Assembly (NCBI GenBank): GCA_010015585.1
Contig: ML975174.1
Reading direction: 5' to 3' (one strand)
DNA length: 47,147 nt
Origin: Eremomyces bilateralis CBS 781.70
Lineage: Eukaryota
Positions 1 to 38,138 of the stretch are shown here, in pieces. The notes under the pieces were generated by a model, which was not told the origin of the DNA, ran no database searches, and saw nothing but the letters and a program-made list of their open reading frames with translations. A program made the position numbers and the translations under genes. How positions within the stretch are numbered: position 1 is the first letter of the stretch; the number at the start of each line of letters is the position of its first letter.

Positions 1-539
1 GTCGACTTTGAAGGTTATTTGTGCTTATTGTTACCTTGAAGCTGAAACCTATTCTAAGTGCAGCGGTCTGCAGAAACATCCTGGAGGCTTGGAGCTGGAG
101 TATATATTTGATATTCCTGGTTCAGACTCTGGCAAACTTGCTTTGTCCAAAGATAAGGATACCCGTCAACACAAATGATCTGGTACAAACGAAAGGACCT
201 AAGTCACTTGTACTGGTGATACTACACAACAGTAAACGGTCAACTAGCAGATGATGATTTTGGACACCAAAGTCTGTCCTATTTATTGTTGTCACTAAGC
301 CAAGAAGGTTAGACTATCAATCGTGCTGACGTTAGGCTCGATGCGAGAATGTAACATGAAGCCTGTAGAGTACTAGGGGCGTCCGATGGCCAGCTATTAG
401 GCTTTCCTGCAGTCATCAGGATTATACCTCGGAGAGAGCCCCTCATCGATCTTCCGATCATCCTCGGAGTGCTCCCCAGAGCCTAGCATCCACATTACTC
501 GATCGCTAATCAGAAGGATACCGAACCCGTATGGCGAAC

Positions 540-2246
540 TCACCCCCCCGTCGTAATCGCCATCCCAATTTCATGCTCCCGCCCATAACAACAGATCCCC
601 TCCGCCGCCATCCCCACATGCCCAACCAATATCCCCGCCACCCGATCCCGCGTCTCCCTCGCCGACGGCCGCTCCTCCGGCAACGGCGAGACCATCCTCC
701 GACATAGTCGCAGCAGCGCAGGCACTGCGCGAAACGCGCGGTGTTCCCGCGTTGCTGCCACCCCCTCCAAGTGATCCATCCAGGTGAGCAGCTTCGGCAC
801 GTTCGCGTGGAACGACGCGTCGACGCGGCTGGGCCCCTTGGATTTCGGGCGGTCGGCGTCGAGTTTGGTGGCGCGGTGTTTGAGGAAGTCGGCGGGGCGT
901 TGCTTGAGGAGGAAGGAGAGGAGGTCGAGGAAGAGGCAGCCGAGGGAGAAGATGTCGGAGTGGGGGGTGGGGATGGGGGGGTCGACAACGGGTTGGAGAG
1001 AGGAGGTGCGGGGGGTGCGGAAGTAGGTGAGGGCGCTGGTGGACTTGCGGCTAGAGGTGGAGGTGGTGCTGGAGGTGGAGACGGAGGGGCAGCGGTCGGA
1101 GGAGCTGGTGCTGGTGTTGGAGGCGCGTTCGAGGCGGAAGGAAGGGGATTTGATGGAGGTGAGGGCGGGCTGGGACTGTCTTCGGGTCGCTACTTGAAGC
1201 TCAGGGGCACTGTAGGTGTATTCTTCCTCGCGGTTCGCTTTCTTATCGCGCTGAAAGGTCCTTAGGCAGCCAATATCGCTGAATGCGATCGAGTTCTTGG
1301 AGTCGATGACGACGTTGCTCGGGCGGATGGCAGCATGGCAGAGACCATTCTGATGCATGACGATGAGAGCGTCCGCCAAGCAGTGCATCCAACCCAGCAG
1401 CAATCGATGTCGATCCGGCTTTGCCAGCCTCTGGTATTGCGGCGGATTACGGTGTGAGATGAAGGACTGTAGAGTATGCTGACCGCTGAACGTGGTGATC
1501 GTGTATCCATCCCCTTGAAAGGTGTAAGACGCATATATTGGCGCGATGTGCGGGTGCACGATCGACCTCGAGGTTCGCACATCTGCGATGAACTCTTCCT
1601 CCAACGCAGTGGACGACTGTGGCTCCTTCAAGCTCACTTTTCGTCGCACGAAAACTTCATGTGGCCGCTTCGGGAAATGCACTCGGTACCAGTCCTGCAA
1701 TGCCACAGCTGGGGGAAGTCGATGGACATACTCGATGGGAACAAACTCGTTGTGCGCGTAGTCGATATGCGAGCCTTCTTTGAGCTCCCGCAACAAGAAA
1801 GTGAATTGGGTGTTGTAAAAACGCCGGAACAAGGCATGATCAGGTTTCACCGACATCTTCAATTGGGGTACGGTATCCTCAGGAATCGGCAGGTCATCAT
1901 CGTCAAACGAATCATCCACGATGGCAAAGATCCGATCCGGAATTCCCAGGTCCTCCAAGATCATGAACCACCGTCGCGCCTTCTTGAGGATCCAGTCGAG
2001 GTAACAGTCGTTCGTCAGGCTGTCGCCGAACGCGAGCGGACGACGCAGCAGAACGCGTTGGTCTGGTCGCACCCGCGATAGGATCAACTCCGGCGTCACC
2101 TTCGAGTCGATCCGTTCGTCGGTCCACCACAGCTGCTGGAGGGGCGCGTGAGGCGTGACGAGGGAGTGCCCGGCATAACCGAAGATGAAGGCGTTCAGCG
2201 CGATGGTGTTGGGCGTGACGACGCTTGATATAGTTCGGGGAACCAT
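540..2246 (-). CDS. Protein kinase-like protein, probably a pseudokinase (568 aa, no intron evident)
   Basis: Kinase-fold motifs: HPHIAPIYASY, WMHCLADAL, HAAIRPSN (catalytic loop position), FSDIG (DFG position), YSAPE, SDIFSLGCLFL, PEERPSA. Confidence 0.8.
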   Translation of the reverse strand: MVPRTISSVVTPNTIALNAFIFGYAGHSLVTPHAPLQQLWWTDERIDSKVTPELILSRVRPDQRVLLRRPLAFGDSLTNDCYLDWILKKARRWFMILEDLGIPDRIFAIVDDSFDDDDLPIPEDTVPQLKMSVKPDHALFRRFYNTQFTFLLRELKEGSHIDYAHNEFVPIEYVHRLPPAVALQDWYRVHFPKRPHEVFVRRKVSLKEPQSSTALEEEFIADVRTSRSIVHPHIAPIYASYTFQGDGYTITTFSGQHTLQSFISHRNPPQYQRLAKPDRHRLLLGWMHCLADALIVMHQNGLCHAAIRPSNVVIDSKNSIAFSDIGCLRTFQRDKKANREEEYTYSAPELQVATRRQSQPALTSIKSPSFRLERASNTSTSSSDRCPSVSTSSTTSTSSRKSTSALTYFRTPRTSSLQPVVDPPIPTPHSDIFSLGCLFLDLLSFLLKQRPADFLKHRATKLDADRPKSKGPSRVDASFHANVPKLLTWMDHLEGVAATREHRAFRAVPALLRLCRRMVSPLPEERPSARETRDRVAGILVGHVGMAAEGICCYGREHEIGMAITTGG

Positions 2247-13256: not shown

Positions 13257-16200
13257 ATGATGCGCGAGATGGATACGAATCGCTCGCTGCGACGTCGCAA
13301 CGACCAGCGCCGACGGGAATTATCTCCCGTCTCGTCCTCCTTCGCCACCGACCGACCGCGGATCGATGAGCGTGAACTGCGAAATATCCCCGCATTGACA
13401 GACCGGTCGGTGTCGGGGTCCAGTTCCCTCTACTCGAACCGCAATCCCATGGGATCCACCATCCGCACTGTGACACCGGACTCCATTCCAGAAGGCCACA
13501 CTTCCGTCACCACGCCAGTCAACGAAGATGACCCGGACTTCCTTTCTTCCGCGCCCGCATCGCCGCAAATCACCCCGAGAAACCCCTTCGATCTTGACCG
13601 CCAAGACCCATCCACCATACGGGAAACTCTACCACCACTTCCACCGCGTCCTTTGCTATCCAGGCCGGGTTCGAGCGATCGAATACCCTCCCTTCGCAAC
13701 GTGAGGGAACTTCGGGCGTCTGGAGACTCTCATTCACAAAACCGTCCGCGCACCCGCACCCTGGACGAGGTGCGGGAGTCGAGCCCCTCGACGCGGTTAA
13801 TCAAGGGACGGGGCCGGATTGGTTCGGTGCATTCGAGCAGTCCTACGCGGCAGTATCAAACCTTAGAGGAGACAGTCATGTCGATTGGACATCCGTCTAC
13901 CGTCCCGGCATTCGCGCTCCAGAACCGGTCGGTAAGCAATCGGAACCGTTTGGTCAAAGCGCCACCAAGGACAGCGGATAGCTTCAATTCCAACTCCATC
14001 GACCCCGTGAACATCGGGCAACCGGAGAGCTTCCCAACGCCAGTCCAAGCGACCAACGCGCGGAGGATCCTCGAACTCATGCGATCGTCGTGCGGCAGAA
14101 TGGAAGGAAGGCTCGCGTTCCGGAGAGGGAACGTCGACCAGTGGACATTGGCGTACTGTAGCGTGAACGAAGAGGCCGGGAGCTTGGTGTATGAGATATA
14201 CAGCAACAAGAACGACATGAACCCAAAGACCTTGATCCCCGACCTTCGAAGCTGTCAGATCCGCACCGGCTTCGATGGCGAAGGTCGCATGCCGTACTTG
14301 GATGTGTGTCCGCACTGCTCCAACCTCGAAGTCCACCTTCGCCCGCACACCCAGGATGAATTCGACTCCTGGTTCGCCGCCCTACTCTGCTGGCAACCCA
14401 TCCGCCCCAAAGGCCTCCAGAATCGCATGACGAAGCCCCAATCGCCGGTGATCAGCGAACGTCGCCTCGCGGACTCCCGCCGCCATTCCGAAGTCTCGTT
14501 GCTCAAGGAGGCGCCCATCATCAAGGTCGGCAAAATGACGTTTTGGGACACCAGCGTTTCGCACAGCAACACAAGTGGCACCCCACGTGGCGTGCGGCCG
14601 CAGGTGCAGCGGATGGAGAGCTTCGCGTCGAAGCGGTGGCGACGCGTATCTTGCACGTTGCGCGAGAACGGTGAGCTCAAGCTCTATTCCGAGTCGGACG
14701 TGACGCTGGTGTCGGTGGTACAATTGTCCCACCTGTCCCGATGCGCCGTGCAGCGATTGGACCCGTCTGTGCTGGATGAAGAGTTTTGCATCGCCATCTT
14801 CCCGCAGTACTCCATGACCTCGACGCACATTTCTCTAGTTCGCCCCATCGTCCTTTCTCTCGACACCCGCGTGCAGTACGAAGTGTGGGTCGTCTTATTA
14901 CGCGCATTTACTATTCCGCAATTATACGGGCCGAAACAACAATCCATCCAGGACGAGAGGTCGTCGCCTCAGCCTTCGCAAGGCCTCTTTAGTCCTACGA
15001 CCGCAGACATGTTCCGTATGGAGCGCTCTTTGAACGTACGGATCATGGAAGCACGCATTATAGATCACTCTTCCTCGAAGGCTCCGGAATCGAGTCATAA
15101 TGGGAAATCCCCCGACCCAGGAAGCCCGTCTATTGCGCACTACGCCGAAATGCAGCTGGATGGCGAGACACGAGCGCGCACTATGGCCAAGGACGGGAAC
15201 AATCCGTTCTGGCGAGAAGAGTTCGACTTCCATGACCTCCCCGACGTCACGTCCATCGCTACGATCCTCGTGAAAAAGAAAATCCCGCAACATCTGCAGA
15301 AGGAGAAGAATAATAAAGACGAAACGAGACGCATCTTTGACGTGCTAAGTTCCTCAGCCAACCATACTTCCAACGGCGGCTACTCCGACGTCAACTTCGA
15401 CGCGACGGTGGGAAAGGTGGATATTGTGCTCGACGACGTTGACCCCGCCAAGGAGGGAGAAAAGTGGTGGCCCCTCGTCAACAGCTACGGCGCCCGCGTC
15501 GGCGAAGCGCTTCTGCGCCTCGAGGCGGACGAGTGTGTCATCCTCATGGCACGCGACTACCAGCCGCTATCGGAACTACTCCACCGCTTCTCCAGCGGGC
15601 TCACGCTACAGATCGCGCACATGGTCCCGGGCGACCTACGACGGTTGAGCGATTGCCTGCTCAACATCTTCCAGGTCAGCGGCACGGCAGGTGACTGGAT
15701 CATGGCGCTCGTAGAGGAAGAGGTTGACGGCACGGTGAAGGAGACCCCCGTGTCGCGGTTGCGGTTCGCGCGGCGGATGGGGTCCAACGAGTCGTCGGAG
15801 AACTTCGGCAGCACGAGCGAGCGTGAGCAGCTGGTGCGCGACCTGGGGAAGAACGCGACGCTGGAGGCGAACCTCCTGTTCCGCGGCAACACCCTGCTAA
15901 CGAAGAGCTTGGACACACATATGAAGCGGCTGGGGAAGGAGTATCTGGACGAGATCCTCGGGGAGAAGTTGACGGAGATCGCGGGGCAGAATCCAGACTG
16001 CGAAGTGGATCCGAATCGGGTGGCGTCGGGAGCGAGCCTCGATCGGAATTGGAAGCGGTTGATCAAGTACACGGAGGAGATCTGGTTTTGTATTTTCCAT
16101 TCGGTCACGCGGTGCCCGCCGGAGTTGCGGCTGATCTTCCGCCATATTCGAGCGTGCGCGGAAGATCGGTATGGGGACTTCTTGCGGTCGGTCAAGTACA

Positions 16201-17391
16201 GCAGCGTGAGCGGCTTCCTGTTCCTCCGGTTCTTTGTGCCGGCAGTGCTCAACCCCAAGCTGTTTGGGCTACTGAAAGGTGTGTCTCGTATCCCAACCGC
16301 CCTATCATGTGCTGAACTCTACAGATCATCCCCAGACACAAGCCCGCCGCACATTAACCCTCATTGCCAAGTCCCTGCAAGGGCTCGCCAACATGAGCAC
16401 CTTCGGCTCCAAAGAGCACTGGATGGAGCCCATGAACGTCTTCCTCACCTCGCACCGCCAAGAATTCAAAACTCTCATCGATAACATCTGCAGCATCCCC
16501 TCCTCCGCGTCCCCCCTCCCCACCCTCACCCCCTCCTACAGCACCCCCATCCAAATCCTCCAACGCCTCCCCCCCACTTCCCGTGAAGGCTTCCCCTCCC
16601 TCCCCTACCTCATCGATCACGCTCGCAACTTCGCCAACCTCGTCGCCCTCTGGCTCGACCGCTCCACGCCCATGGCCAACAACATCCGCCCCTCCGACGG
16701 CGACCTCCTTAAGTTCCACCGCCTCTGCGTCGCCATCGCCGCCCGCACCACCGACTGCCTCGCTCGTGCCGAGCGCGCAGACCGCCCGTCTAGCGCCCTC
16801 AGCGTCCGCTGGGAGGACCTCATAGATCAGCTGGGTCATGTCGCTGGCATCGAGGCGCAGCAGGGCGCCGATTCGCCGCGTCCTAGCCATGGGCAGCAGC
16901 CGTCGCTGAGCGGGTCTGTCGCGAGTACGAATCACACCGAGACCGACGACATGGGGAGCCCGACGGCAATGTGGGCGTCACCGCCAGTAAACGGGTCTGG
17001 GCGACGGGACCGCCGCGATCGGAGTAGCAGCGCGAGTGGCGCGCACGGACCGTATGCGCCATCCAGCGCGAGCACAACAGGGCCGGAGTTCACGCCTCCC
17101 GGCAGCGCGTCCGGAATGGAAGAGCGGAGCACGGGACGCAGTACAGAAATGGAGTTCAGTGCGGGGAGAGCGCTGGATTATCCGCTGGAAGGACGGCGGG
17201 GGAGTAATTTTGCGTTGCATCGGAGTGGACCGAGTAGTACGGTGAGCAGCGACGCGGAGGGGCCGACGGCGTTGCCGCGGTTTGAGCGGCGGGGGAGGGG
17301 AGAGAGGGTGCTGAGGGAGGGGGGGGAGGAGAGGAGGGAGAAGGGGTTTAAGCATGGGTTTATGCCGGGGTTTAAGAAGCGGAAGGGATGA
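13257..17391 (+). CDS. bud2: Ras GTPase-activating protein with PH-like and C2 domains (Bud2/Cla2-like); intron 16279-16324
   Basis: PH-like region (WRRVSCTLRENGELKLY), C2 domain (NPFWREEFDF), RasGAP arginine finger LFRGNT and signature FLFLRFFVPAVLNPKLF; splicing joins the 13245 and 16279 ORFs (LKDHPQ...RTLTLIAKSLQGLAN). Start codon uncertain. Confidence 0.85.
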
Positions 17392-18982: not shown

Positions 18983-20931
18983 CTCGTGCCAGGCTTCCCC
19001 CCCCTCTAGGGTGGGTGCGCCACAGAACAACGCAAACCACAGATCAACGCAAAATCGAGTAAATCAAGCAACAAAACAATCAATTTATTCTACCACGGTT
19101 GAGTATCTATAAAATAAGGGATATTTTCTTGATCCCCAGTAGCTGTAGCAGCTGTTTCACCATTTATTTCTCCCCTGCGAGCCTCCTCTGTGAGCTCACG
19201 TTGCCTTTTCTTCGTATCGCGCGCCCGGCGTCGCTCACGCTTCTCCCACTCCTCCCTCATTTCCGTAGCCTTCCGCTCGTCAATCCGGCGATTTGCATCC
19301 TTAACATAAAGAGGACCTCCTGCATTAACACGTCGACGAGTTGTTTTTCGTTTGCGATTGTGGCTGGCATCTAAATAGCGATCTAAGTCGCTGCCTTGTT
19401 GCGCGCCGAGCTCTGCTTGCAGTAAACTGCCATTGAAAATCTTGTTTATCTTTTTATTAAGCGACGGCGAGACTTCGCCAAGGACATCCTCTATATCCGC
19501 AAGGTTTTTCTTCACCTTCTCAATACTGTGTCGGAGTTTTTGTACATTCTTTGGCGAGGAAAGTTGGGAGGAAGATATAGAGGGGGTCTTTTCACGTTCG
19601 GGTTCGCCGTCCAAAAACTCAAGCACAGGGCCATCATCTGCACATAACTTTTCCAACTCTTTAATAACAAGCTCAGGCTTAATTGGCCATACTCTTCGTC
19701 TTGTCCAGCCGGCGCGGAGAACTCGTGGGGTAAAGGCTTTCTCCCTTATTGCAGGTAGAGCCGAAAGGAACTGCCGATGGTTGAAGCTCTCATCACCCAG
19801 GCGTGCAGCCTCATTGACAGCCTTTGCATGCCAGTGCTTGTACTGCTGAAAAGGGATTCCATCCAGAGGTTGTAAATGGTGTGTCATGTGTGGTGGAAGG
19901 AAGTAAGGAATAATTCGGCGGTCCTCACAGAATTTGAGGAAGTCGTATGTCAGGTGTGAACCATGGTTGTCAAGTAAGAGGAGCCGGTATTCAGAAGATA
20001 TAGCTGGGCGCGTCTCTATATCGAAATGATGAATCCAATCATATCCTCCTTCATCAGTGATATACCCATTAGGTGTAAGGGTGATCATCCAGTTGTCTGG
20101 AAGCCCACAATCCTTATACCAATCCAGATGGTATGAGCCTGCCAGAACAAGAAAGGGGTTAGTTGGTTTGCCTTCAGCAGAGATACATTCAATGACAGTG
20201 ACCAATTTCCGTGTCATGGCACTTCCGATGTTTGCATTTGCTTCAGGAAAAGCAGTTATAACCTTCTCAACCTTTCCCTGGCCAATCTGGAAGCCTGTCT
20301 CATCCATGTTGTAGATGTTGCATGGGCGGATGTGATGGCTTTTGATAGCAATCTCCCAGCGATCATAAAAAGTCTGCACTATCCCAATATCTTCAGCCTG
20401 TATACGCTTAGGATCCATTGGACGCTGTTTAATGCGCTTATATTCGGGTGGAAGGCGTTTAAGGAAGCGGTACGTCCACATTTTTGAGACTGTTGGAGGT
20501 GGGGTTTCTGGGTTTGCGTGGTTTCGAGAGAGGATGGCATTGGCGCAATTTGTCACCATTTCAGCAGTCGGCGGGCGGCCAGCTTCGTCAAGCTGTTTGA
20601 TCCAGTGTTTAACTGCATCCTCCTGTGCTTTATCAAGTATTCGGTTGGCAGGCTTTGGAGCTTTCTTCGACGGCTTGCCATTGATACGTGATCGAAGGGC
20701 GTAGTAAGGAACGCGATACTCGTTGTGTAACGACGTGATATTTTTATTTTCACCACGTCGGTACTCGGTGACAGCTGCAAGGATTCGACTCTCTTGATCA
20801 TCTTCCTCAGGAGGCATGTTGGTGTTGAGATAATTAACTATTTGAGTTGAATTTACAGATTTTGCGTTGTTGTGTGGTTTGCGTTGATCTGTGGCGCACC
20901 CACCCTGGAGGGGGGGGAAGCCTGGCACGAG
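18983..20931 (-). mobile_element. Full-length Fot1/pogo-type Tc1-mariner DNA transposon with TA target site duplication
   Basis: TA|ctcgtgccaggcttcccccccctc..gggtgggtgcgccacaga.caacgcaaaccaca...caacgcaaaatc at both ends in inverted orientation (~73 bp); TA at 18981-18982 and 20932-20933; encloses a transposase ORF. Confidence 0.95.
19090..20817 (-). CDS. Fot1/pogo transposase (HTH + CENP-B-type HTH + DDE_1 domain), 575 aa, uninterrupted
   Basis: DDD triad motifs YNMDETGF, LLLLDNHGSH and LQPLD; ECISAEG; LPPHMTHHLQP; first ATG inside the TIR boundary at 20817. Confidence 0.95.
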   Translation of the reverse strand: MPPEEDDQESRILAAVTEYRRGENKNITSLHNEYRVPYYALRSRINGKPSKKAPKPANRILDKAQEDAVKHWIKQLDEAGRPPTAEMVTNCANAILSRNHANPETPPPTVSKMWTYRFLKRLPPEYKRIKQRPMDPKRIQAEDIGIVQTFYDRWEIAIKSHHIRPCNIYNMDETGFQIGQGKVEKVITAFPEANANIGSAMTRKLVTVIECISAEGKPTNPFLVLAGSYHLDWYKDCGLPDNWMITLTPNGYITDEGGYDWIHHFDIETRPAISSEYRLLLLDNHGSHLTYDFLKFCEDRRIIPYFLPPHMTHHLQPLDGIPFQQYKHWHAKAVNEAARLGDESFNHRQFLSALPAIREKAFTPRVLRAGWTRRRVWPIKPELVIKELEKLCADDGPVLEFLDGEPEREKTPSISSSQLSSPKNVQKLRHSIEKVKKNLADIEDVLGEVSPSLNKKINKIFNGSLLQAELGAQQGSDLDRYLDASHNRKRKTTRRRVNAGGPLYVKDANRRIDERKATEMREEWEKRERRRARDTKKRQRELTEEARRGEINGETAATATGDQENIPYFIDTQPW

Positions 20932-28710: not shown

Positions 28711-29919
28711 GGCGAACTTGGAGAACGACTTTGAACAGTGAAAAATGTATAACAGAAGATGAAATATTCAAAAAGGACTTTGAAGACTGTAAGATAAACT
28801 TATAGAACAGCCAAAATCGGGAGGCGTGCGGCCATTCTACGCCCGGAGTCCCCGATCTTGACTCGATCCCGTTGCGGAGTCCAAGCCATATCGTGTGGAC
28901 GAACGCCATACCCCGCTATTCCTTCTCGCCTCGGATCTGGCTTAGGTTACAATCTGAAATTAACGTGACGATAGGTTGCAGCGAATACAGTCAAAGAAGA
29001 GGGGAATCCTTTCCCAGACAGATGTTCCTTTTGGCCCCTTGGGGCGGTTGAAGCTCTGGTAACATAATTGGATGGGGGTACAGGGTGCCCCCCACTCATA
29101 GGGAATGATCAGGTACAGAACACTTCATCTGCACCTATTTCATGTTGTAAGACGAGTGAGGGACTAGTTCCAGTTCTAAGCAGGCGGTGGGAATTATTCA
29201 TTCTAATCGTGAATCGGGGATCTCTGGAGGACGAACCCCACAGCCCCGCAGTGGGGAGGGAGGATCTGTGGAAGGACTCAATCAACGTATTGACGTATCC
29301 GTGGCCCTTGGACCCACACCGAAGGGCCACGGTGTCAGGGCACGAAGAATGAGGCAAAACTCTGTGATTCGTGATATACTAGAATCAATCTACAAAGGGG
29401 AAAGGGAGATCTAAGTGTGAGGGGAAATATTCAGTAGGCCTTGGGGTGACCACAACACATCGTGAGGCCGTAAGGCATCCACATCCCAAGGCCCCAAGGC
29501 ATCAAACTGAATTCAATCTTCGATCCTTCACACACGGATATAACTTCACGTATAACGTACTCAGTAATACTTCAGCTTTGACGTCCTTATACTGCCCTAT
29601 TGAGAGACTGTATATAGGATGAGCTTACTGACTAAACGGGGTATAAATTTGTGATTCTATCTTTAGACAAATAACATAGGCAAAAAATTTCAATGATTGA
29701 GGGCTTTCGACTAACTTATGGGATGCTAAAAAAGGTTATATATTGCTTTCCGCTATTTCCAAATACCTCCAAAAGTCCAGCCATTAGTCACGACCGTGAG
29801 AAGAACATTGTTAAGCAGCTAAAAAATGAAGACATCTCTTGGTTACAGACAGGATTCGGCCCCGTTGATCATGCCGTGCCGGACGAGTCCGATCATCGAC
29901 TATCTTTATCCCTTTCCAT

Positions 29920-30669
29920 TCAGCCCCTAACAACCGCCAGCAAGAACCCATCATACCCCTTCTCCCCCACCGTTTGCAACACCACCGCGTCCACCCGACT
30001 GTCCTTCCCCGCCAATTCCACCACCTTTCGACTCCCCCGAATCCGCTCATCCTGCTTCCCCAGCTCCTCGTCCGCCAAATTCCCTCGCCGCACCACGTTA
30101 TCCACCACGATCGTACCCCCGGGCACCGACAACTGCACCGCCACATCAAAATACTCCCAGTTATTCTGCTTGTCCGCATCGATGAACACGAACCCAAACG
30201 GCTCCCGCTTCCCCGCCTTCACCTCCTCCAACAGCCGCGGGAGCACCTCGACCCCCGCGCCCACCTCCACGCTGACCCGGTCGCTCACGCCCGCGCGCTC
30301 GAGGTTCTCCCGCGCGATCTTCGCATGGTGCGCGTCGAACTCAACCGTCACGACATTGGTGTCGGCCTTGTTGGCACCGGCACCGGCGCTGTGGCTCAGC
30401 CAGATGGTGCTGAAGGCGCCGAGGGTGCCGACTTCGAGGATGTTCGTCGCGCGCGCGGCGCGGGCGAGCAGCATGAGGAATTTGCCTTGCGAGGCGGTGA
30501 CGGCGATGTCGGGGAGGCCGCTGGCCTGCGCGTGCGCGTGAGCGGCGTCTAGGGTGGATTTGGTGGGCGCGAAGGGAGGGGCGGAGGTGTCGAGGCTCTT
30601 TTCGGTGTATTTGTCGACGGCGATCCACGCGGGAGCAGGAACACCGACTGAAGAGTTAGTGGTCGACAT
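29920..30669 (-). CDS. SAM-dependent O-methyltransferase family 3 (MdmC/caffeoyl-CoA OMT-like), intronless
   Basis: GLPDIAVTASQGKFL, ILEVGTLGAFSTIWL, FVFIDADK, IVVDNVVRRG, LQTVGEKGYDGF. Confidence 0.92.
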   Translation of the reverse strand: MSTTNSSVGVPAPAWIAVDKYTEKSLDTSAPPFAPTKSTLDAAHAHAQASGLPDIAVTASQGKFLMLLARAARATNILEVGTLGAFSTIWLSHSAGAGANKADTNVVTVEFDAHHAKIARENLERAGVSDRVSVEVGAGVEVLPRLLEEVKAGKREPFGFVFIDADKQNNWEYFDVAVQLSVPGGTIVVDNVVRRGNLADEELGKQDERIRGSRKVVELAGKDSRVDAVVLQTVGEKGYDGFLLAVVRG

Positions 30670-31912
30670 GTCTGTTGTGGGCGGATGATATTGCGATGGT
30701 TAAGTAAAATCCTTCCCGTTGATCGCGTCCACTCAAATTGTGAAGTACAGGTAATGGAGATGGAGATGTCGACGGTCTGAGTTCGATGGAAAGATGGTCT
30801 CTGGCTTTACTGATATAGGCATCGATGTCCTCCCGATGTCGCTGCTGTCCTTATCACATCATTCCTACTTTGAGAAGGTGCCATCTTCCTCTGACTCACT
30901 TGGACCATGATGTTGTGACTGAGGACGCGCAATCCGTGGGAAACTTGTGGAATGCAACGCCGCGCACCCCAGACCGGATATGGAGTCGGCGTTAAGCCAT
31001 GCGGACCGAAGTTCGCTTGAGTGGACGGAATAGAATTGTATCATAGATGTATTCGTTACGTCGCTTTTCTCGGCGGTTAGCTGAACTACCTAGCTAAAAC
31101 TCGGGAAGCTCGGGAGCTCCGAGTTCGTGTTGTGACGACAGGATGGCTTCCCTGTTCTTTACCGTGCCCAACCTAATTACGTCCTCCTTCGCGATAGGAC
31201 ATTGTTGAATGTATGGAATATTCATGTGTGCTCCTCCAAGGAGGCGCACACGCTTTGCTCCTGAGATGGATAGACGGAATTACCAATGTGTACCAAGAGG
31301 ATAAGTTGATAGAGCGAAGGGGTTCGTTTGATTTTTCCAGTTGTTGGGACGACGCCCCACAGTTCAGAAGCATCTGATTCCGTCACATTCATCATGTTTC
31401 TCGTCTTCACCAACGCCTGCAAGCGGATTTTCTTCTCACCAGAACGAAGCACATGAGAAACCTACTGTGAACTGTAATCACCGGTACTCTTTATATCTCA
31501 TAGTATTAGTCGCTCTCTCTGGTTCAACGTTCTATCCGTCATCAATCATCTGGAGCTCACTTCTCAAGCGGTGGTCCACTTACATAGGACCGAACCGTGG
31601 ATGAGACTATCGCCGCGAACCACCTAAATCGAAGTAATCGGCGCTGTCTAGACTCTGGAGTAGCTACACAATTGAGACGTTTCCTATTGCGCTCCCTTCT
31701 CCTGGAATCCTCCTTCCCACCGCGAGGAACCTGTTCCTAGCTCTATCAACAGCGTGCTCTCAAAATTTTCTCAAAATTCCCTTAATTTTTAATACCGGTC
31801 ACAGTCATCTCTATCCATAATCTTCTACCAGCACGCACTCGCACAATTGCTAGGTTCCGATTCAATCAAGAGCTGGAAAATTCCGATATCTGGGACTTCA
31901 CCCGCTGTCGCC

Positions 31913-32941
31913 ATGGCGGCTCCCCCCAGGATACACTTCGTCCGTCACGGACAGGCGTTTCATAACCTCTCTGCAGACTTATACCACCTCCCCGATCCCT
32001 TACTGACTCCCCTTGGGAAACGCCAATGCGAAGAACTCCGCAATACCTTCCCCCACCACGCCTCGATATCAATCATCATCTCCTCCCCCCTAACGCGGTG
32101 CCTCCAAACCTCCGTGCTCGCCTTCCCCGCCACGATATCCCGTCCAGGCACCCCACGACAGTCATCCTCGCGCTCGCCCTCCTCCAACACCTCCTACGCA
32201 AACTCCCCAACCAGCTCCCGCCACGAAAAATCCCGCGACCGACCCCCCCACCCCGACCTTACCTCCCCGACCGCGCCCGCCTCCGAAGTCCACCCCCGTC
32301 CGATCGTCGCGCAACCCCTCCTCCAAGAAACCTCCCATCTCCCCTGCGACACCGGCACCGCCTTTCCCCTCCTCCTTGGCGGCCTCCCGAACCTCCTCGG
32401 CATCTCCGCCGCGCGCGTCGACCTCTCGCACCTCACCGACCACGAGTGGCTGGACAAGCGGGCGAACGGCCCGCACGGGACGTCGGGGAAGTCGCTGGAA
32501 GCGCGGGCGAAGAGTGCGCGGCAGTGGTTGCGGATGCTAAGGAATAAGGGGCACACGGACGTGGCGGTGGTGTGTCATGCGGGGTTTCTGGGATGGTTGA
32601 CGGGGACGCGGAGGGCGAGTTGGGCCGTGCAGAAGGGGAAAGATCAGTGGGAGAACTGCGAGTGGCGGACGTATGAGTTTGTGAGCGGGGATGATAAGGA
32701 TGCGGTGTTGGTGGAGGCGGCGGAAAGTCGGGTGAGGAGGGGGGTGTGTTCGGAGGAGGAGGCAGCGCATGAGGAGACGGAGAAGAGTGCGGCGAGGAAG
32801 AGCTGGAAGGACTTGTTAAAGCCGAAGAAGGGGGAGAGGGATGAGGATGGTGGAGAGGGATATGGGGGGGAGATGGAGAGCCTGAATAAGGCACAGCACA
32901 CTACGCTGATGAAGAATCGAGACTGGGTAGGCGGGTATTGA
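31913..32941 (+). CDS. Histidine phosphatase / phosphoglycerate mutase-like protein
   Basis: IHFVRHGQAFHN (RHG motif), DPLLTPLG, SSPLTRCLQT, QETSHLPCDTG, VVCHAGFL, WENCEWRTYEF; ATG in a gccATGg context. Confidence 0.9.
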   Translation: MAAPPRIHFVRHGQAFHNLSADLYHLPDPLLTPLGKRQCEELRNTFPHHASISIIISSPLTRCLQTSVLAFPATISRPGTPRQSSSRSPSSNTSYANSPTSSRHEKSRDRPPHPDLTSPTAPASEVHPRPIVAQPLLQETSHLPCDTGTAFPLLLGGLPNLLGISAARVDLSHLTDHEWLDKRANGPHGTSGKSLEARAKSARQWLRMLRNKGHTDVAVVCHAGFLGWLTGTRRASWAVQKGKDQWENCEWRTYEFVSGDDKDAVLVEAAESRVRRGVCSEEEAAHEETEKSAARKSWKDLLKPKKGERDEDGGEGYGGEMESLNKAQHTTLMKNRDWVGGY

Positions 32942-33444
32942 TATCGCATGGAGGTTATGGCGAGTCTTTGGAGGATTTTTCCACTCATATGTGGACATGT
33001 CACGGATCCGACTTAATCAGGGTTTCGACTTTCACTTCCAGCTTGGGGATGGCATGGAAGGTCTAAAGTACCGTATACCTCCAGGGGCGTAAGTAACCCC
33101 ACATTGCTCCTATTAACTCCTAATTTAACGACATTGATCAAGTTCTGAATGGCACTATTCCAGATAACACTTAAGTATGCATGCATCGGGTCTAGATACC
33201 ATCTCCCGACTTCATGACCACATCATCCATCGAATATCGCGCTACACCGCTGTATATCCCCCCGCCCGTACATGTCTATCCGCCTGCGAAACTTATCCCA
33301 CGCCCAACCACCCCTCTCCCTCGTCCTCATCCCACAATTCAGCGAATCCTACTCTACTCAACACCATAAAACCTCAACATCGAACTTCAATCCATTGCTA
33401 GCCACGCAGCCTAGCTCTCCCCACATCAAGCATCCCTCATTCCC

Positions 33445-33561
33445 TCACAGAATGGTGCAGGGAATAATACAGCAGCTGCAGCTGTCGCCGCATTCGAGGC
33501 ATTTGGTGTCGGCGGGTTTGGGTTTGAGGACGGAGGGGACCGAGGTGGTGGAGGCGGGCAT
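33445..33561 (-). CDS. Small Cys-rich CaaX-box peptide MPASTTSVPSVLKPKPADTKCLECGDSCSCCIIPCTIL (38 aa); 5'UTR intron about 33612-33676
   Basis: Translated by hand (below the ORF-track cutoff). Good start context ccgccacaATG, mostly C-ending codons, ends CTIL-stop (CaaX); upstream GTAAGT...CTGAC...CCCCCAG intron. Confidence 0.7.
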   Translation of the reverse strand: MPASTTSVPSVLKPKPADTKCLECGDSCSCCIIPCTIL

Positions 33562-35523
33562 TGTGGCGGTTCACAATGCGATTGTTCTGAGGTAGACGTG
33601 CGATGGAGCTCCTGGGGGAAGTCAGAGGTTGGTATAGATGATAGATGATAGGGTCGGATCTTCGGCGGGGACTTACCTTTGGCTTGGAGGTGTGAAAGAT
33701 GGGAGTGAGAGGAAGGGTAGAACGTTGAGCTTCGGAGAAGTTGCTGCGGGAAATAGGGAGCAATGGCAGATTACTGGAGGTACTGTATTTAGGAGACACA
33801 ACTGGAGGGAACCATAGGGATGTTATTTGAAGTCAAAGAGAGATATCAGCGCTTCGTGAATCGGAGTTGAAACATGAACAGCCCCATCATGTTGATCAAG
33901 CAGAGGAGAGCAAGTGAGGTCTGTGGCTGTGCAACTATATTTTTGTGGGGTAACATAGGGTTTGCCTACGAATTGAAACGGCGCCAGTCTATTCTTGGAT
34001 CGGTGATGACGTCGACTCTGGGTAGGGTTGTTGTGCTCGGGATACCGGAGTAGTGAAGTTCAGATCTATTGTGTTCCATCTTCCAGCTTTGAGCCTTCTC
34101 AAAGGAATTCAAGGCGGTGTCTACGGAGTAGATATGTGGATAATTGGCAGTTGGATACAGATCATTGCCGACCCTCAGACTTCAACTGGTGGAGGGTAGG
34201 ATGTGTCGAACTTTGCTATATCTACCCTTCTTCTATATTCCTAGAGGGGGCTTCCCTTGTGGGGGTTTAGCTTGGTTGGGTAGATTCATCAGGATGGACA
34301 TGCAGGCTAGGAGACTTCAAGGCCGTGATAGCATAAGGGGTATCGTAAATCGTAGCAGTCTTAGACTTCAGCGACCATATGCTCTCCGGCGCCTGTGTAT
34401 AGTAGACATTAGAAACATCCCGAATCCAAGGCACTGAAAGCATCGATGAGGTACCTATCTAGAGGCACCATCCCACCAGTTCTACCATTGAGCTGTCGGC
34501 TTTCAGCCTTCCTCAACTTGGTACAGGATACTTTGGATAATGGATAGGATCCTCTTTACATTAGAATGCATGGAATACAACATATCTCGCAGCAGCCTCC
34601 ATCACACGTAGGACATGCTATGCAACCGGTCTGGACGGTCAACTTGATAGATTACTGATCGAGGAGGTTGAGCTGATCATTGACGACAGCACCTTGCTGA
34701 TTGATGATGTCAGCGCGGTATATGTGCTGGGTGGTCTTGTTCAGACAGTATTGTTCAAGTTAGCGGGTAAACCCGTAGTATAGGATCGAACAGGTGCGAA
34801 TGACATATCGAAGTCTCTTGGTGGGTAGGAGAGTATTGAGGGACCGATGGAGTGATGCGAAGGGGATTCAGGGGTGGCAAGTTGGGCATTGGGGTATTAG
34901 GAGATTGTTCACAGAAGCAATAACACAGTTGAAAGTAGTAGATTGACAAAATAATGTGCCCATGGTCAAGAAATAAGCAAAGTACCTCGAGTACGGTTAA
35001 CGGTACAGAAAGCTGAGGATCCATCTTCTGCTGGGGCAAAGGCCCGAGCCGCACCCCATCCCATCAGATCGCGTACCAGATATGAGATCAGATAAGGGAC
35101 CGACGTAGGGCTACGCTAATATTTCTATCTCATATTATTTCCTACCTTACCGGGCTTCCCGCCGTCATTTTCTCTGCCTACTCTTGTGCAGTCTCTCCGC
35201 AACCTTTCCTCCCACTAGTTAGAAAGGAGAGAGTTAGTACTCCATCCTTCGCCTTCGACGTGCTTGTCTAGCCTCCGGAATCGGAGAGTCAGACCAAGCT
35301 GCCTAATTCAAAGGCGGATAAAACGGCGATTTTATATCTAAGGATGTAACGTAGATGGCTAATTGATCACGGAATAGATGGACGAGGTTAGGAGATTACG
35401 AAGCCCACCGACGATCTTATCTTATCTGATGGAGTCGGTGACTCCACCCATGCGTGCCATGCACTCCATGTCACATGCAGAACCAGGGATAGAAATTACA
35501 TGTAAAACCAGCCTTTGTATGTA

Positions 35524-35936
35524 GGCTGGTGAGATTTTCCCCCCTCAGAAGTACCAAAATAACCAGTTTTGAAATTTACAAGGCAATGTAGCCACATTTT
35601 CACCATTATTTTCAAATTAAAAACTCAGAGAGAGTTCTTTAGAATTCCCTCTTGCTCTTGGACCCCAAAATTTGATTCTAATAAGCTGCGGGGTTGCGTG
35701 ATTTGGAATTGAAGTCGTGGTAGTTTTTTCATATAACTCATCAAGTTCAACACACAATTTAACCACAACGCAACGGGGATTTGGAGCTCTAAATTAGCAG
35801 GATCGGTTATCCAGGCTTTAGTATTCTTCTTATTTTTTAAAAATTATATTATTTCGAAGCTGGCGTTGAGCTGTTTGGAGTTGAAGTTGAAATATGGTGG
35901 TTTTGATACCTCTGAGGGGGGAAAATCTCACCAGCC
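35524..35936. mobile_element. Mutator-like (MULE) MITE, 413 bp, 9-bp TSD ttgtatgta
   Basis: TIR ggctggtgagattttcccccctcaga perfect for 26 bp and degenerate beyond; ttgtatgta directly flanks both ends (35515-35523 and 35937-35945); AT-rich non-coding interior. Confidence 0.92.
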
Positions 35937-36415
35937 TTGTATGTAACAATTGGAAATGTAACGTAAATTAGCAATTTTTTGTATTACTGTGACATTTACA
36001 GCTAGTCCCAATGCGGTTAAAATTAATGCCTTATTATCTATCTCAGTCTAGTTTATTGATACCTTGATGCCTCAGGTAGAGGTAATTTATCCTGAATTTG
36101 GCGAGTTGGTCGGCTTGGTCCATTCCTCACAGAAATTCCCTGGGCCCATCAAAACGCGCCTGTAAACTTGGCATGCAACGGAAATATTTTGGAGCGAACT
36201 ATACTAGCTGAATACCTCCGTTGGCGCGGCCCTTTTTTCAGCTACGAAGTCCTGACTCTCATCCTGTCTCTTCAGATCGACAATCCTTTCATGCATTCCG
36301 TATAGAACATTGACACGCAAAAGAGCTAGGACGCTGCTACCAGGTGGCAGTTGGGGTTGCGAGTTGTCAGCAGTAGAATCATTTTTTCCAGATACGCTGT
36401 TATATATTGTCCATA

Positions 36416-38138
36416 ATGACTGCCCAACACGATCCGACTCTGCCCGACGAGGAACACGCGCCGCTTCTCTGCGAGGGGGATCGGGTTCAAAACCATGGCG
36501 CCATTCTGGATGCATATGGATCTGGGGAGGTCGACAATGCCGAAGAAGGTGGTCTCGCATCCCCTGACTTGAAAGAGCCGAGTACTTTGAAATTGATCGT
36601 GATCATGGGCAGCATATGGGTTGGCGTTTTCCTTGGTGCTCTCGGTAGAACTCTCTGCCCAATCCTTTTAATATCCGAACTTCGCTAATATAGTTCTAGA
36701 TGCCACGGTCATTGCGACTCTCAGCGCCCCTATTTCCACTTCGTTCCATTCCTTCACCCTCGTATCCTGGCTCGCATCCTCGTATCTCATCTCCAATGCG
36801 GCCCTCCAGCCCCTTTCCGGCCGCCTCACCGACATCTTCGGCCGTCGGTCCGGCCTAATCTTCTCCAACGTCTTCTTCGGGGCCGGGAATCTGATCTGCG
36901 GTCTTGCCAGCTCTGAAGCCGCCATGATCTTTGGCCGCGTCATCGCCGGAATGGGAGGCGGAGGCCTGTTTGCCATCAGCACGTTCGTCGCTTCGGACTT
37001 GATTCCGCTTCGCCAGCGCGGCCTCTGGCAAGGCTTTGGGAATGTGTGCTATGGCCTTGGCGCGGGTCTCGGAGGCGTGTTCGGTGGGTGGATTAACGAT
37101 CGCTGGGGATGGCGGTGGGCGTTTCTTATCCAAGTGCCTTGTGTTGCAGTCTCGGGCGTCCTGGTCGCTTTTACGGTCAATATCCCGGTGAAGGAGAATA
37201 ATCTCTCTAGAATTCGCCGCGTCGATTTTCTTGGGGCGATGACGCTGGTCGTGTCGTTGACCCTTCTCCTTCTCGGTCTCAACTCGGGTGGCAACATCGT
37301 GCCCTGGACCCATCCCCTGGTTTTGACCGCGTTGCCACTCTCTTTGGTGTTCCTCGTGGCATTTATATTTGTGGAGGACCGAGTCCCCGAACCTATCATA
37401 CCTACACGTCTTCTAACGCGTCGAGCGGTCTGGGCTCCATGTGTTGTCAATTGGCTTCAGACGATGGCTGTCTTCGCGGTTGTGTTCTACATTCCAATCT
37501 ACTTTCAAATCCGCGGCCTCAGTGCGACTCAATCAGGAGCAAGGATGATTCCCCAGGCGCTTGGCGCTGCTATTGGATCCCTGGGCTCTGGATTGATCAT
37601 GCGAGCGACAGGACGCTACTACTACTTGAACCTCGTTACTCAAGCCTTATTTTTGGCCGGTTTTGCACTTATCGCGATAACCTTCGACCAGGACACCCCC
37701 GATGCCCCCCCCTATATCTACATCCTTATGGTCGGAATTGGATATGGAGGGATGCTGACCATCACACTTCTTGCACTGATCAGTGCGGAGGATCATAAGC
37801 ATCACTCGGTCATTACTTCCGCGTCGTATGCATTCAGAAGCACTGGCTCGACTCTCGGAATCGCGATCGCCAGCGGCGTTTTCCAAAACCTGCTGAAGTC
37901 GGGCCTCTGGAAGAGATTCGGTGATCGAGAGAATGCGGGAGAGATCATAGGGCGGGTGCGAGATTCCATTGATGAAATTCGTCATCTGCCTCCTGGATGG
38001 CAGAAAGGCGTACTAGAGGTTTACATGGCGAGTTTCAAAGGTGTTTGGTGGACCATGTTCGGTCTTGCAGTTTTGAGTGCACTCTGCAGTCTCCTCATGA
38101 AAGAGCACGTTTTGCATAATACCCTAGCGAGGGATTAA
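36416..38138 (+). CDS. MFS transporter, 14-TM DHA2/Vba-like multidrug or vacuolar basic amino acid transporter; intron 36645-36699
   Basis: EHAPLL N-terminal dileucine-type motif; GVFLGALDATVIATL; QPLSGRLTDIFGRR (MFS motif A); GRVIAGMGGGG; SDLIPLRQRGLWQG; many hydrophobic helices. Confidence 0.92.

What the first reader, a model, noticed from the sequence alone, without database searches (positions are those of the whole stretch)
33445..33561. Hidden 38-aa Cys-rich CaaX peptide gene: candidate a-factor-type lipopeptide pheromone or a new class of lipidated peptide
Seen: a minus-strand ORF missing from the ORF track reads MPASTTSVPSVLKPKPADTKCLECGDSCSCCIIPCTIL*. It has a strong start context (ccgccacaATG), heavily C-ending codons like the neighbouring real genes, and a canonical 5'UTR intron (donor 33676, branch CTGAC, acceptor 33612). 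It lies in about 3.4 kb with no other gene. Established: ascomycete a-factor-type pheromone precursors are very short, often begin with MP-S/T-rich segments, end in CaaX and are routinely missed by annotation; CaaX ending in L favours geranylgeranylation. Inference: five extra Cys (CxxC, CxCC) upstream of the CaaX Cys are not typical of classical a-factors. They suggest palmitoylation sites or a metal-binding cluster, i.e. either an unusual pheromone or a membrane-anchored metallothionein-like signalling peptide.
Basis: partly seen in the sequence, partly recalled or inferred. Interest (0 to 1): 0.85.

Follow-up and report, generated by a model that had tools for sequence, protein, structure and literature searches.

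The report
Unannotated Cys-rich CaaX peptide gene
A real, spliced and transcribed 38-codon fungal gene encodes a cysteine-rich peptide with a lipid-attachment tail; it is a divergent relative of a peptide family already proposed, but not proven, to be the missing mating pheromone of another fungal class.

Summary
The ORF at 33445-33561(-) reads as stated. It is the first ATG of its transcript, and contigs of an RNA run carry the predicted 65-nt 5'UTR intron (33612-33676) spliced out.

It is not a new class. It belongs to the small Cys-rich CaaX family that Wilson et al. 2023 (PMC10569646) reported in 111 Leotiomycetes as a "putative a-factor pheromone" (B. cinerea BCIN_13g03330; S10 File). A profile built from 19 distinct metagenome members, without the window, hits this ORF at E=1.9e-07. 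The next of 1622 frames scores E=0.26. Family CDSs show pN<pS in 171 of 171 pairs.

New points: the window's proteins match NCBI records of a Dothideomycete, so the family reaches beyond Leotiomycetes. This copy is also the shortest and most divergent seen: no NGPGS block, CSCC instead of CCC, one I-P, and a CTIL ending.

Function is unproven. My odds: exported a-factor-type prenylated pheromone about 0.45; cell-retained prenyl/palmitoyl Cys-cluster peptide about 0.3; metal-binding about 0.1. Verdict: new member of a known kind.

The parts
33445..33561 (-). Coding sequence, 38 codons plus TGA: MPASTTSVPSVLKPKPADTKCLECGDSCSCCIIPCTIL*
   Evidence: Family profile E=1.9e-07. Covered by RNA contigs.
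33448..33459 (-). CaaX box C35-T-I-L, flush with the stop codon; predicted prenylation site
   Evidence: The Cys column is invariant in alignment A1. Family endings are CTVM, CVVM, CSVM, CTIL and CVIL. Prenylation itself is inferred.
33457..33501 (-). Cys cluster C21-x2-C24-x3-C28-x-C30-C31-x3-C35
   Evidence: Invariant columns are K20 C21 E23 C24 C28 C30 I33 P34 C35.
33520..33555 (-). Ser/Thr-rich block ASTTSVPSVLKP, which aligns with the family's A(A/S)S(T)ISSIVKP
   Evidence: HMM alignment, profile positions 18-29; alignment A1.
33562..33611 (-). 5'UTR part of exon 2. It has no upstream ATG and carries an in-frame TGA at 33571-33573.
33612..33676 (-). 5'UTR intron, 65 nt, GTAAGT...CTGAC...CAG
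   Evidence: Sequence. Loose ends of 4 RNA contigs at 33613 continue with exon-1 letters, 22 of 24 matching.
33677..33771 (-). Exon 1 (5'UTR); the 5' end is not mapped
   Evidence: The depth bin 33505-33771 is the deepest of the 8 kb laid, and depth falls beyond it. Contigs cannot show a transcript start.
33238..33444 (-). 3'UTR, extent not mapped. It converges on the 3' end of the His_Phos_1 gene (31913-32941, +).
   Evidence: Depth bin 33238-33504. One RNA contig runs unbroken from 30586 to 33486.

Best explanation
Shown here. This is a real, unannotated, transcribed gene with one spliced 5'UTR intron. [quoted passage not shown] The host is a Dothideomycete. I put membership at about 0.9.

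Inferred from established CaaX biochemistry. The precursor is prenylated on Cys35. Because X is Leu, geranylgeranyl is predicted, whereas most relatives end in Met, which predicts farnesyl. The -TIL tripeptide is then removed and the new C-terminal Cys is methyl-esterified.

My commitment for the next step, at about 0.45. The Ser/Thr-rich N-terminal part is cut off, and the lipidated Cys-rich C-terminal peptide is exported by a Ste6-type ABC transporter. It then acts as the hydrophobic (a-factor-type) signal for the Ste3-class receptor, possibly with further non-mating roles.
For: Gene reality: (ORF, first ATG, spliced RNA contigs).

Membership:
- S10 File of PMC10569646 lists sequences such as ...SIVKPE..GKTKCLECDGYECCCIPIPCTVM*. 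One ends in CTIL, four have a single I-P, and one 45-aa member starts MPPSNTT.
- A degenerate DNA pattern found 56 metagenome loci. Of these, 24 encode the full family C-terminus ending at a stop, 1 is broken, and 31 are unrelated.
- A profile of the 19 distinct full-length members, without the window, gives E=1.9e-07 and 27.9 bits. The alignment runs to both C-termini. The next of 1622 frames scores 0.26.
- 1 of 2000 shuffles with the pattern residues fixed reaches the real score.

Coding constraint: pN<pS in 171 of 171 pairs among the 19, with mean pS 0.68 and pN 0.19. Outside the pattern columns this also holds in 171 of 171 pairs. For the window against each of the 19, pN is 0.29-0.42 and pS is 0.45-1.0.

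Pheromone reading:
- The precursor is short, has a Ser/Thr-rich start (MPAST...) and ends in CaaX, like the Sordariales a-factors MPST...GYCVVM.
- Many Colletotrichum a-factor candidates in S2 File end in CVIL, so CaaL endings do occur among such candidates.
- The gene sits under the deepest RNA bin of the 8 kb laid. The tool warns that contig depth cannot rank genes.

Host class: a RasGAP ORF in the window is 100% identical to an NCBI protein of Eremomyces bilateralis CBS 781.70. Every other organism-named hit listed is a Dothideomycete.
Against: No experiment shows that any family member is a pheromone.

Wilson et al. report the following (passages read):
- No mating-type-dependent expression in three heterothallic Leotiomycetes.
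- 11 of 12 species without a functional STE3 still carry the gene.
- Conservation at genus and family level that they call unique for a partner attractant.

Further points against:
- No sequence in their S2 File of Sordariomycete and yeast a-factors has a comparable Cys cluster.
- The family's GY motif and its NGPGSAAS block are missing from the window peptide.
- Ste12 pheromone-response elements are not enriched upstream: 1 of 20 upstream regions against 1 of 20 downstream.
- Seven of the profile's 57 positions were fixed by my own search pattern, so part of the HMM score is circular. addresses this.
- The RNA run's growth condition and strand are unknown.
Confidence: 0.45

Rival explanations
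1. Same gene and same family, but the product is not a secreted pheromone. After prenylation, the neighbouring cysteines (C28, C30, C31; CCC in relatives) are palmitoylated. The peptide then stays on the cytosolic face of membranes as a multiply lipidated micro-protein, like the C-terminal tails of Ras/Rho proteins or the small Cys-rich CYSTM stress proteins. Its role would be in membrane organisation or stress tolerance.
For: - Cysteines 4-7 residues upstream of the prenyl-Cys are placed as the palmitoylation sites of Ras-type tails are (my recalled knowledge, no call).
- The 20-aa core is nearly invariant across a whole class, whereas Sordariomycete a-factors differ strongly between orders.
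- The gene is retained in 11 of 12 species without a functional STE3, and expression is independent of mating type.
- Family endings switch between M and L, so the kind of prenyl group seems not to matter.
- The ESM-Atlas features of a relative (L054) place a fungal cluster auto-named 'CYSTM domain-containing' third at 0.90. This is a lead only.
Against: - Pfam CYSTM (PF12734) matches 0 of 20 family members, even at E up to 10.
- The peptide has no hydrophobic helix.
- A conserved Ser/Thr-rich N-terminal block fits a processed pro-region at least as well.
- Palmitoylation was not tested.
Confidence: 0.3
2. A prenyl-anchored metal-binding peptide, that is a membrane-tethered, metallothionein-like or metallochaperone-like Cu(I)/Zn(II) cluster formed by C-x2-C and C-x-CC. 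In idea it is comparable to the isoprenylated heavy-metal-associated plant proteins.
For: - Six Cys in the last 18 residues, with C-x2-C and C-x-C spacings.
- The highest Cys fraction (0.16) of 265 ATG-ORFs of 30-100 aa in the window.
- Acidic residues interleaved with the cysteines.
- Deep RNA contigs, as is usual for metallothionein genes (depth caveat applies).
Against: - No Pfam family, metallothionein or otherwise, matches at E up to 1 for the peptide or up to 10 for 20 of 20 members.
- Mac1-type and Ace1-type copper elements are not enriched upstream of the 20 genes: 1 of 20 and 4 of 20 upstream, against 0 of 20 and 5 of 20 downstream, and none in the window.
- AlphaFold gives no fold, but it cannot model metal clusters.
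Confidence: 0.1
3. The ORF is incidental within an abundant non-coding transcript.
For: The ORF is very short. It has no Pfam match and no significant true hit among 1.84 billion representative proteins.
Against: - It is the first ATG of the transcript.
- It shows strong C3 codon bias in this frame only.
- The ORF, with its stop in the same place, recurs in 24 metagenome loci and in the 111 species the authors report, with pN<pS in 171 of 171 pairs.
Confidence: 0.02

Closest known systems
Leotiomycete 'putative a-factor pheromone' family (Botrytis cinerea BCIN_13g03330; Wilson et al. 2023, PMC10569646)
   Same: Both are short, mostly unannotated ORFs with a Ser/Thr-rich N-terminal part. They share the ..S-[IV]-[VL]-K-P.. 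motif, the T-K-C-[LIF]-E-C motif, a CC(C) run, I-P-C-[TV]-[VI]-[ML] and a stop flush with the CaaX. One published member also ends in CTIL.
   Different: - 38 aa against the published 45-64.
- No M-C start and no LVNRNGPGSAAS block.
- GDS instead of DGY, so no GY motif.
- C-S-C-C instead of C-C-C.
- I-I-P instead of I-P-I-P.
- The host is a Dothideomycete, not a Leotiomycete.
- 38-53% identity to the 19 relatives aligned.
Sordariomycete a-factor-type precursors (N. crassa mfa-1 / S. macrospora ppg2 type; sequences in S2 File of PMC10569646)
   Same: Very short precursors that start M-P-S/A-T/S and end in CaaX. Some candidates (Colletotrichum) end in CVIL.
   Different: They have no Cys cluster, and the 21-24-aa forms have no K-C-x-E-C core. 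Similarity was judged by eye only. I did not run these paper sequences through a tool.
Aspergillus fumigatus a-factor-like pheromone PpgB (Krappmann et al. 2025, Curr Biol 35:2414)
   Same: From the title and citing sentences only, it is a long-missed a-factor-like pheromone gene of a non-Sordariomycete.
   Different: Unknown. The paper is not held, so I saw neither its sequence nor its text, and no comparison was possible.
Prenyl-plus-palmitoyl C-terminal tails of Ras/Rho proteins and G-gamma subunits (recalled knowledge)
   Same: A CaaX box with extra cysteines a few residues upstream.
   Different: Those tails are attached to folded GTPase or G-gamma domains. Here the tail is nearly the whole protein.
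CYSTM small Cys-rich tail-anchored stress proteins (Pfam PF12734)
   Same: Small, Cys-rich at the C-terminus, and found in fungi. A fungal cluster with that automatic name is an ESM-Atlas feature neighbour of a family member at 0.90.
   Different: The Pfam model matches 0 of 20 members. The peptide has no transmembrane helix, and CYSTM proteins have no CaaX.

Membership tests
BCIN_13g03330 family (Leotiomycete putative a-factor) | Short stand-alone ORF (published range 45-64 aa) | tested here: met
   38 aa, shorter than any published member. An in-frame stop lies 4 codons upstream of the ATG.
BCIN_13g03330 family (Leotiomycete putative a-factor) | C-terminal CaaX/CPaX immediately before the stop | tested here: met
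   CTIL*, the same ending as H. bicolor in S10 and as L009, L016 and L030.
BCIN_13g03330 family (Leotiomycete putative a-factor) | Conserved core K-C-x-E-C-x(3,4)-C/CC-C-I-P-(I-P)-C and upstream S-[IV]-[VL]-K-P | tested here: met
   Profile without the window: E=1.9e-07 against a next best of 0.26 among 1622 frames. 1 of 2000 constrained shuffles reaches the score. Invariant columns are listed.
BCIN_13g03330 family (Leotiomycete putative a-factor) | Ser/Thr-rich N-terminal part | tested here: met
   5 of the first 10 residues are S or T.
BCIN_13g03330 family (Leotiomycete putative a-factor) | Gly-Tyr motif near the C-terminus (87 of 111 published members) | tested here: not met
   The window has G-D-S. 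The motif is not universal in the family (L018 has GDSS).
BCIN_13g03330 family (Leotiomycete putative a-factor) | N-terminal M-C...LVNRNGPGSAAS block | tested here: not met
   Absent. The alignment starts at profile position 18. L009 and A. pellizariae are also shortened.
a-factor-type lipopeptide pheromone (Ste3 ligand) | Prenylation, aaX cleavage and carboxymethylation of the CaaX Cys | not testable with these tools
   Only the motif is seen.
a-factor-type lipopeptide pheromone (Ste3 ligand) | Export and activation of the Ste3-class receptor | not testable with these tools
a-factor-type lipopeptide pheromone (Ste3 ligand) | Mating-type-linked or mating-induced expression; Ste12/MAT control | tested here: inconclusive
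   One RNA run of unknown condition. There is one PRE-like heptamer at 33874 in the window, but only 1 of 20 family upstream regions has one. The paper reports no mating-type dependence in 3 species.
Fungal metallothioneins | Match to a metallothionein family model | tested here: not met
   Pfam: 0 families for the peptide at E up to 1, and 0 of 20 members at E up to 10.
Fungal metallothioneins | Metal binding and metal-induced transcription | tested here: inconclusive
   Copper-element motifs are not enriched. Binding is not testable here.
CYSTM (PF12734) | Match to the Pfam model; C-terminal Cys-rich transmembrane helix | tested here: not met
   0 of 20 members match. No hydrophobic helix is present.

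The most novel reading that the evidence does not exclude
The family is not a mate attractant at all. It would be an ancient micro-protein, present before Leotiomycetes and Dothideomycetes split, whose whole function lies in a prenylated, multiply S-acylated or metal-bridged Cys cluster on membranes. That would make it a previously unrecognised kind of lipidated micro-protein, mislabelled as a pheromone because it ends in CaaX.
Probability: 0.35. Interest if true: 0.7.

Novelty: new member of a known kind. Interest (0 to 1): 0.5.

Why it matters
The hydrophobic a-type pheromone has been a long-standing gap outside the Sordariomycetes. My full-text searches for it in Dothideomycetes returned no paper reporting one.

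This gene shows that the only published candidate family for the sister lineages is older than the Leotiomycetes. As the most divergent member seen, it marks out a minimal conserved core: A-S-x-T-x-x-S-[IV]-[VL]-K-P ... T-K-C-x-E-C ... C-x-C/CC ... I-P-C-T-[VI]-[ML].

That core gives a profile for finding the gene in other classes. It also allows a sharp test. If the family co-occurs with classical a-factor genes, it is something else, namely a conserved lipidated Cys-cluster micro-protein.

It is also a concrete example of a strongly transcribed gene missing from a deposited fungal annotation.

Tried and rejected
- phmmer of the peptide against 1.84 billion representatives gave 2 hits at E up to 0.001. 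Both are 258- and 390-aa repeat proteins that match only V-L-K-P-K-P-A-like repeats, so I judge them spurious.
- The word-indexed search with the 41-aa frame found no candidate sharing three 5-residue words.
- The exact look-up did not find the peptide in the collection.
- No whole genome is held for the window. I therefore could not look for Ste3, Ste6, paralogues or a classical a-factor gene.
- Sequencing runs: no RNA holder is listed as such. The one holder is labelled 'RNA?'.
- Pfam gave nothing for the peptide or for any of 20 family members. The PDB sequence profile search had a best E of 2.5.
- AlphaFold2 on alignment A1 gave mean pLDDT 48.2 and no secondary structure, so no fold search was run.
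- ESM Atlas: the window's nearest cluster scores 0.85. It is a 56-aa, 91-member Ascomycota 'hypothetical protein' cluster, and by those descriptors it looks like the first hit of relative L054 (0.96). This is a lead only.
- Promoter motifs (Ste12 PRE, Mac1 CuRE, Ace1, STRE, TATA) show no enrichment upstream against downstream of the 20 genes. ACAAAG occurs upstream in 9 of 20 (13 sites) against 4 of 20 downstream (4 sites), but not in the window.
- A consensus-motif 5'UTR intron is present in 10 of 19 related loci. These are unverified, and some contigs may already be spliced RNA.
- Earlier notes of this scan held nothing relevant.
- The Krappmann et al. 2025 paper could not be read, and two further searches found no text describing its peptide.

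Full report
1. The observation

The minus-strand ORF at 33445-33561 reads MPASTTSVPSVLKPKPADTKCLECGDSCSCCIIPCTIL*. Its context is accgccacaATG. An in-frame TGA lies four codons upstream. No other ATG lies between 33800 and the start on that strand, so the ORF cannot be longer and it is the first ATG met by a scanning ribosome.

27 of its 38 codons end in C (0.71). Four neighbouring ORFs show 0.32-0.39, and the other two frames of the same stretch show 0.21 and 0.37.

The predicted intron is there in sequence: GTAAGT at 33676, CTGAC at 33625-33621 and CAG ending at 33612, giving 65 nt.

2. Transcript evidence

One public run (X1, kept as contigs, labelled 'RNA?') holds 63% of the sampled words of 33200-33900. 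Laid on 29500-37500, it behaves as RNA. One 2801-nt contig skips a 55-nt GT..AG intron of the neighbouring MFS gene (36643/36699), and summed depth ranges from 1.3 to 16722.

Four contigs stop matching at 33613 and run on with letters that equal the + strand from 33679 onwards in 22 of 24 positions.

The bin 33505-33771 is the deepest of the 30 bins. The tool warns that contig depth cannot rank genes, so I use this only as 'clearly transcribed'. Strand, ends and growth condition are not known.

3. Why ordinary searches fail

- Pfam gives nothing.
- The exact peptide is not among 15 billion collected proteins. The O-methyltransferase next door, from the same 309,810-bp contig, is there.
- phmmer against 1.84 billion representatives returns only two repeat proteins that match the V-L-K-P-K-P-A stretch.
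- The word-indexed search finds no candidate.

So the gene is unannotated in the deposited record and invisible to standard look-ups.

4. What it is

A literature search led to Wilson et al. 2023 (PMC10569646). I read passages of the text and supplements S2 and S10.

They screened annotated proteins of 100 aa or fewer that end in CaaX/CPaX. They found one gene, B. cinerea BCIN_13g03330, conserved in 111 Leotiomycetes and mostly unannotated. It is 45-64 aa long and Ser/Thr-rich at the N-terminus. It usually ends in CTVM, and rarely in CVVM, CIVM, CTIL, CSIM or CSVM.

S10 prints sequences such as ...GPGSAASSTISSIVKPEGGAAGKTKCIECDGYECCCIPIPCTVM*. The window peptide shares A-S-x-T-x-x-S-[IV]-[VL]-K-P, T-K-C-L-E-C, C-C-I, I-P-C-T and a stop flush with the CaaX. 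Published variants bridge the differences:
- One member ends in CTIL.
- Four have a single I-P.
- A. pellizariae is 45 aa, starts MPPSNTT and has C-G-E-Y-S-C-C-C.

I did not put paper sequences into tools. Instead I scanned the metagenome contigs with a degenerate pattern for K-C-x-E-C-x5-C-C-I.

Of the 56 loci found, 24 encode the complete family C-terminus ending at a stop, one (L021) is broken after KCIECDG, and 31 are unrelated. Of the 24, 22 have an in-frame ATG and they give 19 distinct proteins. The closest to the window are L018/L038 (KCLECGDSSCCCIPIPCVVM*), L016 (KCIECGDYECCCIPCTIL*) and L032 (...CVIL*).

A profile of the 19, without the window, scored against all 1622 stop-to-stop frames of 15 aa or more in the window. 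It finds the ORF at E=1.9e-07 (27.9 bits), aligned from profile position 18 to the last position and to the last residue of the peptide. The next frame has E=0.26.

Seven residues were dictated by my pattern, so I held them fixed and permuted the other 30. One of 2000 shuffles reaches the real score (28.0 bits against 7.9 +/- 4.6).

In alignment A1 the window is 38-53% identical to the 19. The columns K20 C21 E23 C24 C28 C30 I33 P34 C35 are invariant.

6. Protein-level selection

Among the 19 distinct coding sequences, pN<pS in 171 of 171 pairs, with mean pS 0.68 and pN 0.19. Outside the pattern columns this also holds in 171 of 171 pairs (0.63 against 0.24). In the last 6-7 codons pS is 0.75 and pN is 0.09. 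For the window against each of the 19, pN is 0.29-0.42 and pS is 0.45-1.0.

The pairs are not independent and pS is saturated. The direction is nonetheless unambiguous: this is a coding gene.

7. Host

- The O-methyltransferase's best organism-named relatives are Dothideomycetes at 55-60% identity, with Chaetothyriales close behind. No Leotiomycete appears among the organism-named hits of the 120 listed.
- The RasGAP ORF (13257-16484) is 100% identical to an NCBI protein filed under Eremomyces bilateralis CBS 781.70, on a contig of the same length. Every other organism-named hit is a Dothideomycete at 57-64%.
- The taxonomy places this species in Dothideomycetes, order Eremomycetales.

Wilson et al. 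describe the family only from Leotiomycetes and call it the first a-factor candidate outside the Sordariomycetes. My full-text searches for an a-factor in Dothideomycetes returned only that paper and a Huntiella study. The window therefore extends the family to a second class. This implies either presence in the common ancestor or transfer.

8. How it most likely works

Shown: a gene, a spliced transcript, family membership and purifying selection.

Inferred from established CaaX biochemistry: prenylation of Cys35, removal of TIL and carboxymethylation. Leu at X predicts geranylgeranyl transferase I, while the Met of most relatives predicts farnesyl transferase.

Beyond that the evidence divides.

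For an exported a-factor-type pheromone (my odds about 0.45):
- The overall architecture fits. The M-P-A-S-T start resembles the Sordariales a-factors M-P-S-T-...-G-Y-C-V-V-M.
- CVIL endings occur among Colletotrichum a-factor candidates, so Leu is no objection.
- Sordariales a-factors are themselves identical across genera in that file.

Against it:
- Expression does not depend on mating type in three species.
- 11 of 12 STE3-defective species retain the gene.
- The core is near-invariant across a whole class, while Sordariomycete a-factors differ between orders.
- The Cys cluster has no counterpart in any listed a-factor.
- Ste12 elements are not enriched.

These same points favour a cell-retained peptide that is prenylated and S-acylated (about 0.3). 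The cysteines 4-7 residues before the prenyl-Cys sit where Ras-type palmitoylation sites sit (recalled knowledge).

A metal-binding cluster (about 0.1) has only composition in its favour. No metallothionein model matches and copper elements are not enriched.

An incidental ORF is excluded by the conservation data.

9. Other structure and family look-ups

- The PDB profile search has a best E of 2.5.
- Pfam matches 0 of 20 members.
- AlphaFold2 with the alignment gives mean pLDDT 48.2 and no secondary structure. This fits a disordered processing substrate but proves nothing.
- The ESM Atlas places the window (0.85) and L054 (0.96) nearest a cluster with the same descriptors: 56 aa, 91 members, Ascomycota, 'hypothetical protein'. 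A fungal cluster auto-named CYSTM ranks third for L054 at 0.90. These are leads only, and the Pfam CYSTM model does not match.

10. Verdict

The gene is a candidate a-factor-type precursor in the sense already published for its relatives, and it is not a new class.

What is new:
- The host class.
- The unannotated status in this genome.
- A minimal, divergent form that marks out the conserved core.

What I could not do:
- Search fungal genomes. None is held, and the window's genome is not held.
- Read Krappmann et al. 2025 on A. fumigatus PpgB.
- Place the M-A-C-type metagenome relatives taxonomically.

Noticed in passing
window 30586-33486: One RNA contig of run X1 (2901 nt, depth 1019) is colinear with the genome across about 1.3 kb of apparently ORF-poor DNA (30670-31912). 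This lies between the O-methyltransferase and the His_Phos_1 gene. The contig then runs through that gene into the 3' end of the peptide gene. This suggests an unannotated transcript or a very long 5'UTR, and convergent overlapping 3'UTRs.
   Followed up: no
window 36643-36699: A 55-nt GT..AG intron of the MFS transporter gene is confirmed as spliced in an RNA contig.
   Followed up: partly
window 19090-20817 (-): An uninterrupted 575-aa ORF with DDE_1 endonuclease and Tc5-type HTH domains. It looks like an intact pogo/Tc5-like transposase.
   Followed up: no
L032 (metagenome locus), match at 182-220 (-): This family member has a perfect C-terminal core (KCLECGDFECCCIPLPCVIL*) but no in-frame ATG in a long open upstream frame. 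Its start may lie in another exon, or the N-terminal part may differ.
   Followed up: no
L021 (metagenome locus), match at 601-639 (-): This family-like copy is interrupted by a stop right after KCIECDG. It may be a pseudogene, a frameshift or an intron inside the coding part.
   Followed up: no
upstream 450 nt of the 20 family genes (19 loci plus the window): The HMG-box-like hexamer ACAAAG occurs upstream in 9 of 20 genes (13 sites), against 4 of 20 downstream (4 sites). There is none in the window. This may hint at MAT/HMG control in some lineages, or it may be chance or shared descent.
   Followed up: partly
metagenome loci L010, L014, L016, L045, L054, L056 (and L009): A subgroup of relatives starts M-A-C and often has S-I-A-E-S-I-I-K-P instead of S-T-I-S-S-I-V-K-P. 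No sequence in the published Leotiomycete list starts that way, so they may come from yet another lineage.
   Followed up: no
P0002, P0003 (hits): Two predicted proteins of 258 and 390 aa consist of repeated LPIVLKPKPATVRL and ADCPEAEARHGQTG units. They look like translations of a repeated DNA element rather than real proteins.
   Followed up: no
window 33272-33595 (+): A 107-aa ATG-ORF lies antisense to the peptide gene. The splice orientation of the RNA (GT..AG on the minus strand) argues that it is not the expressed frame.
   Followed up: partly
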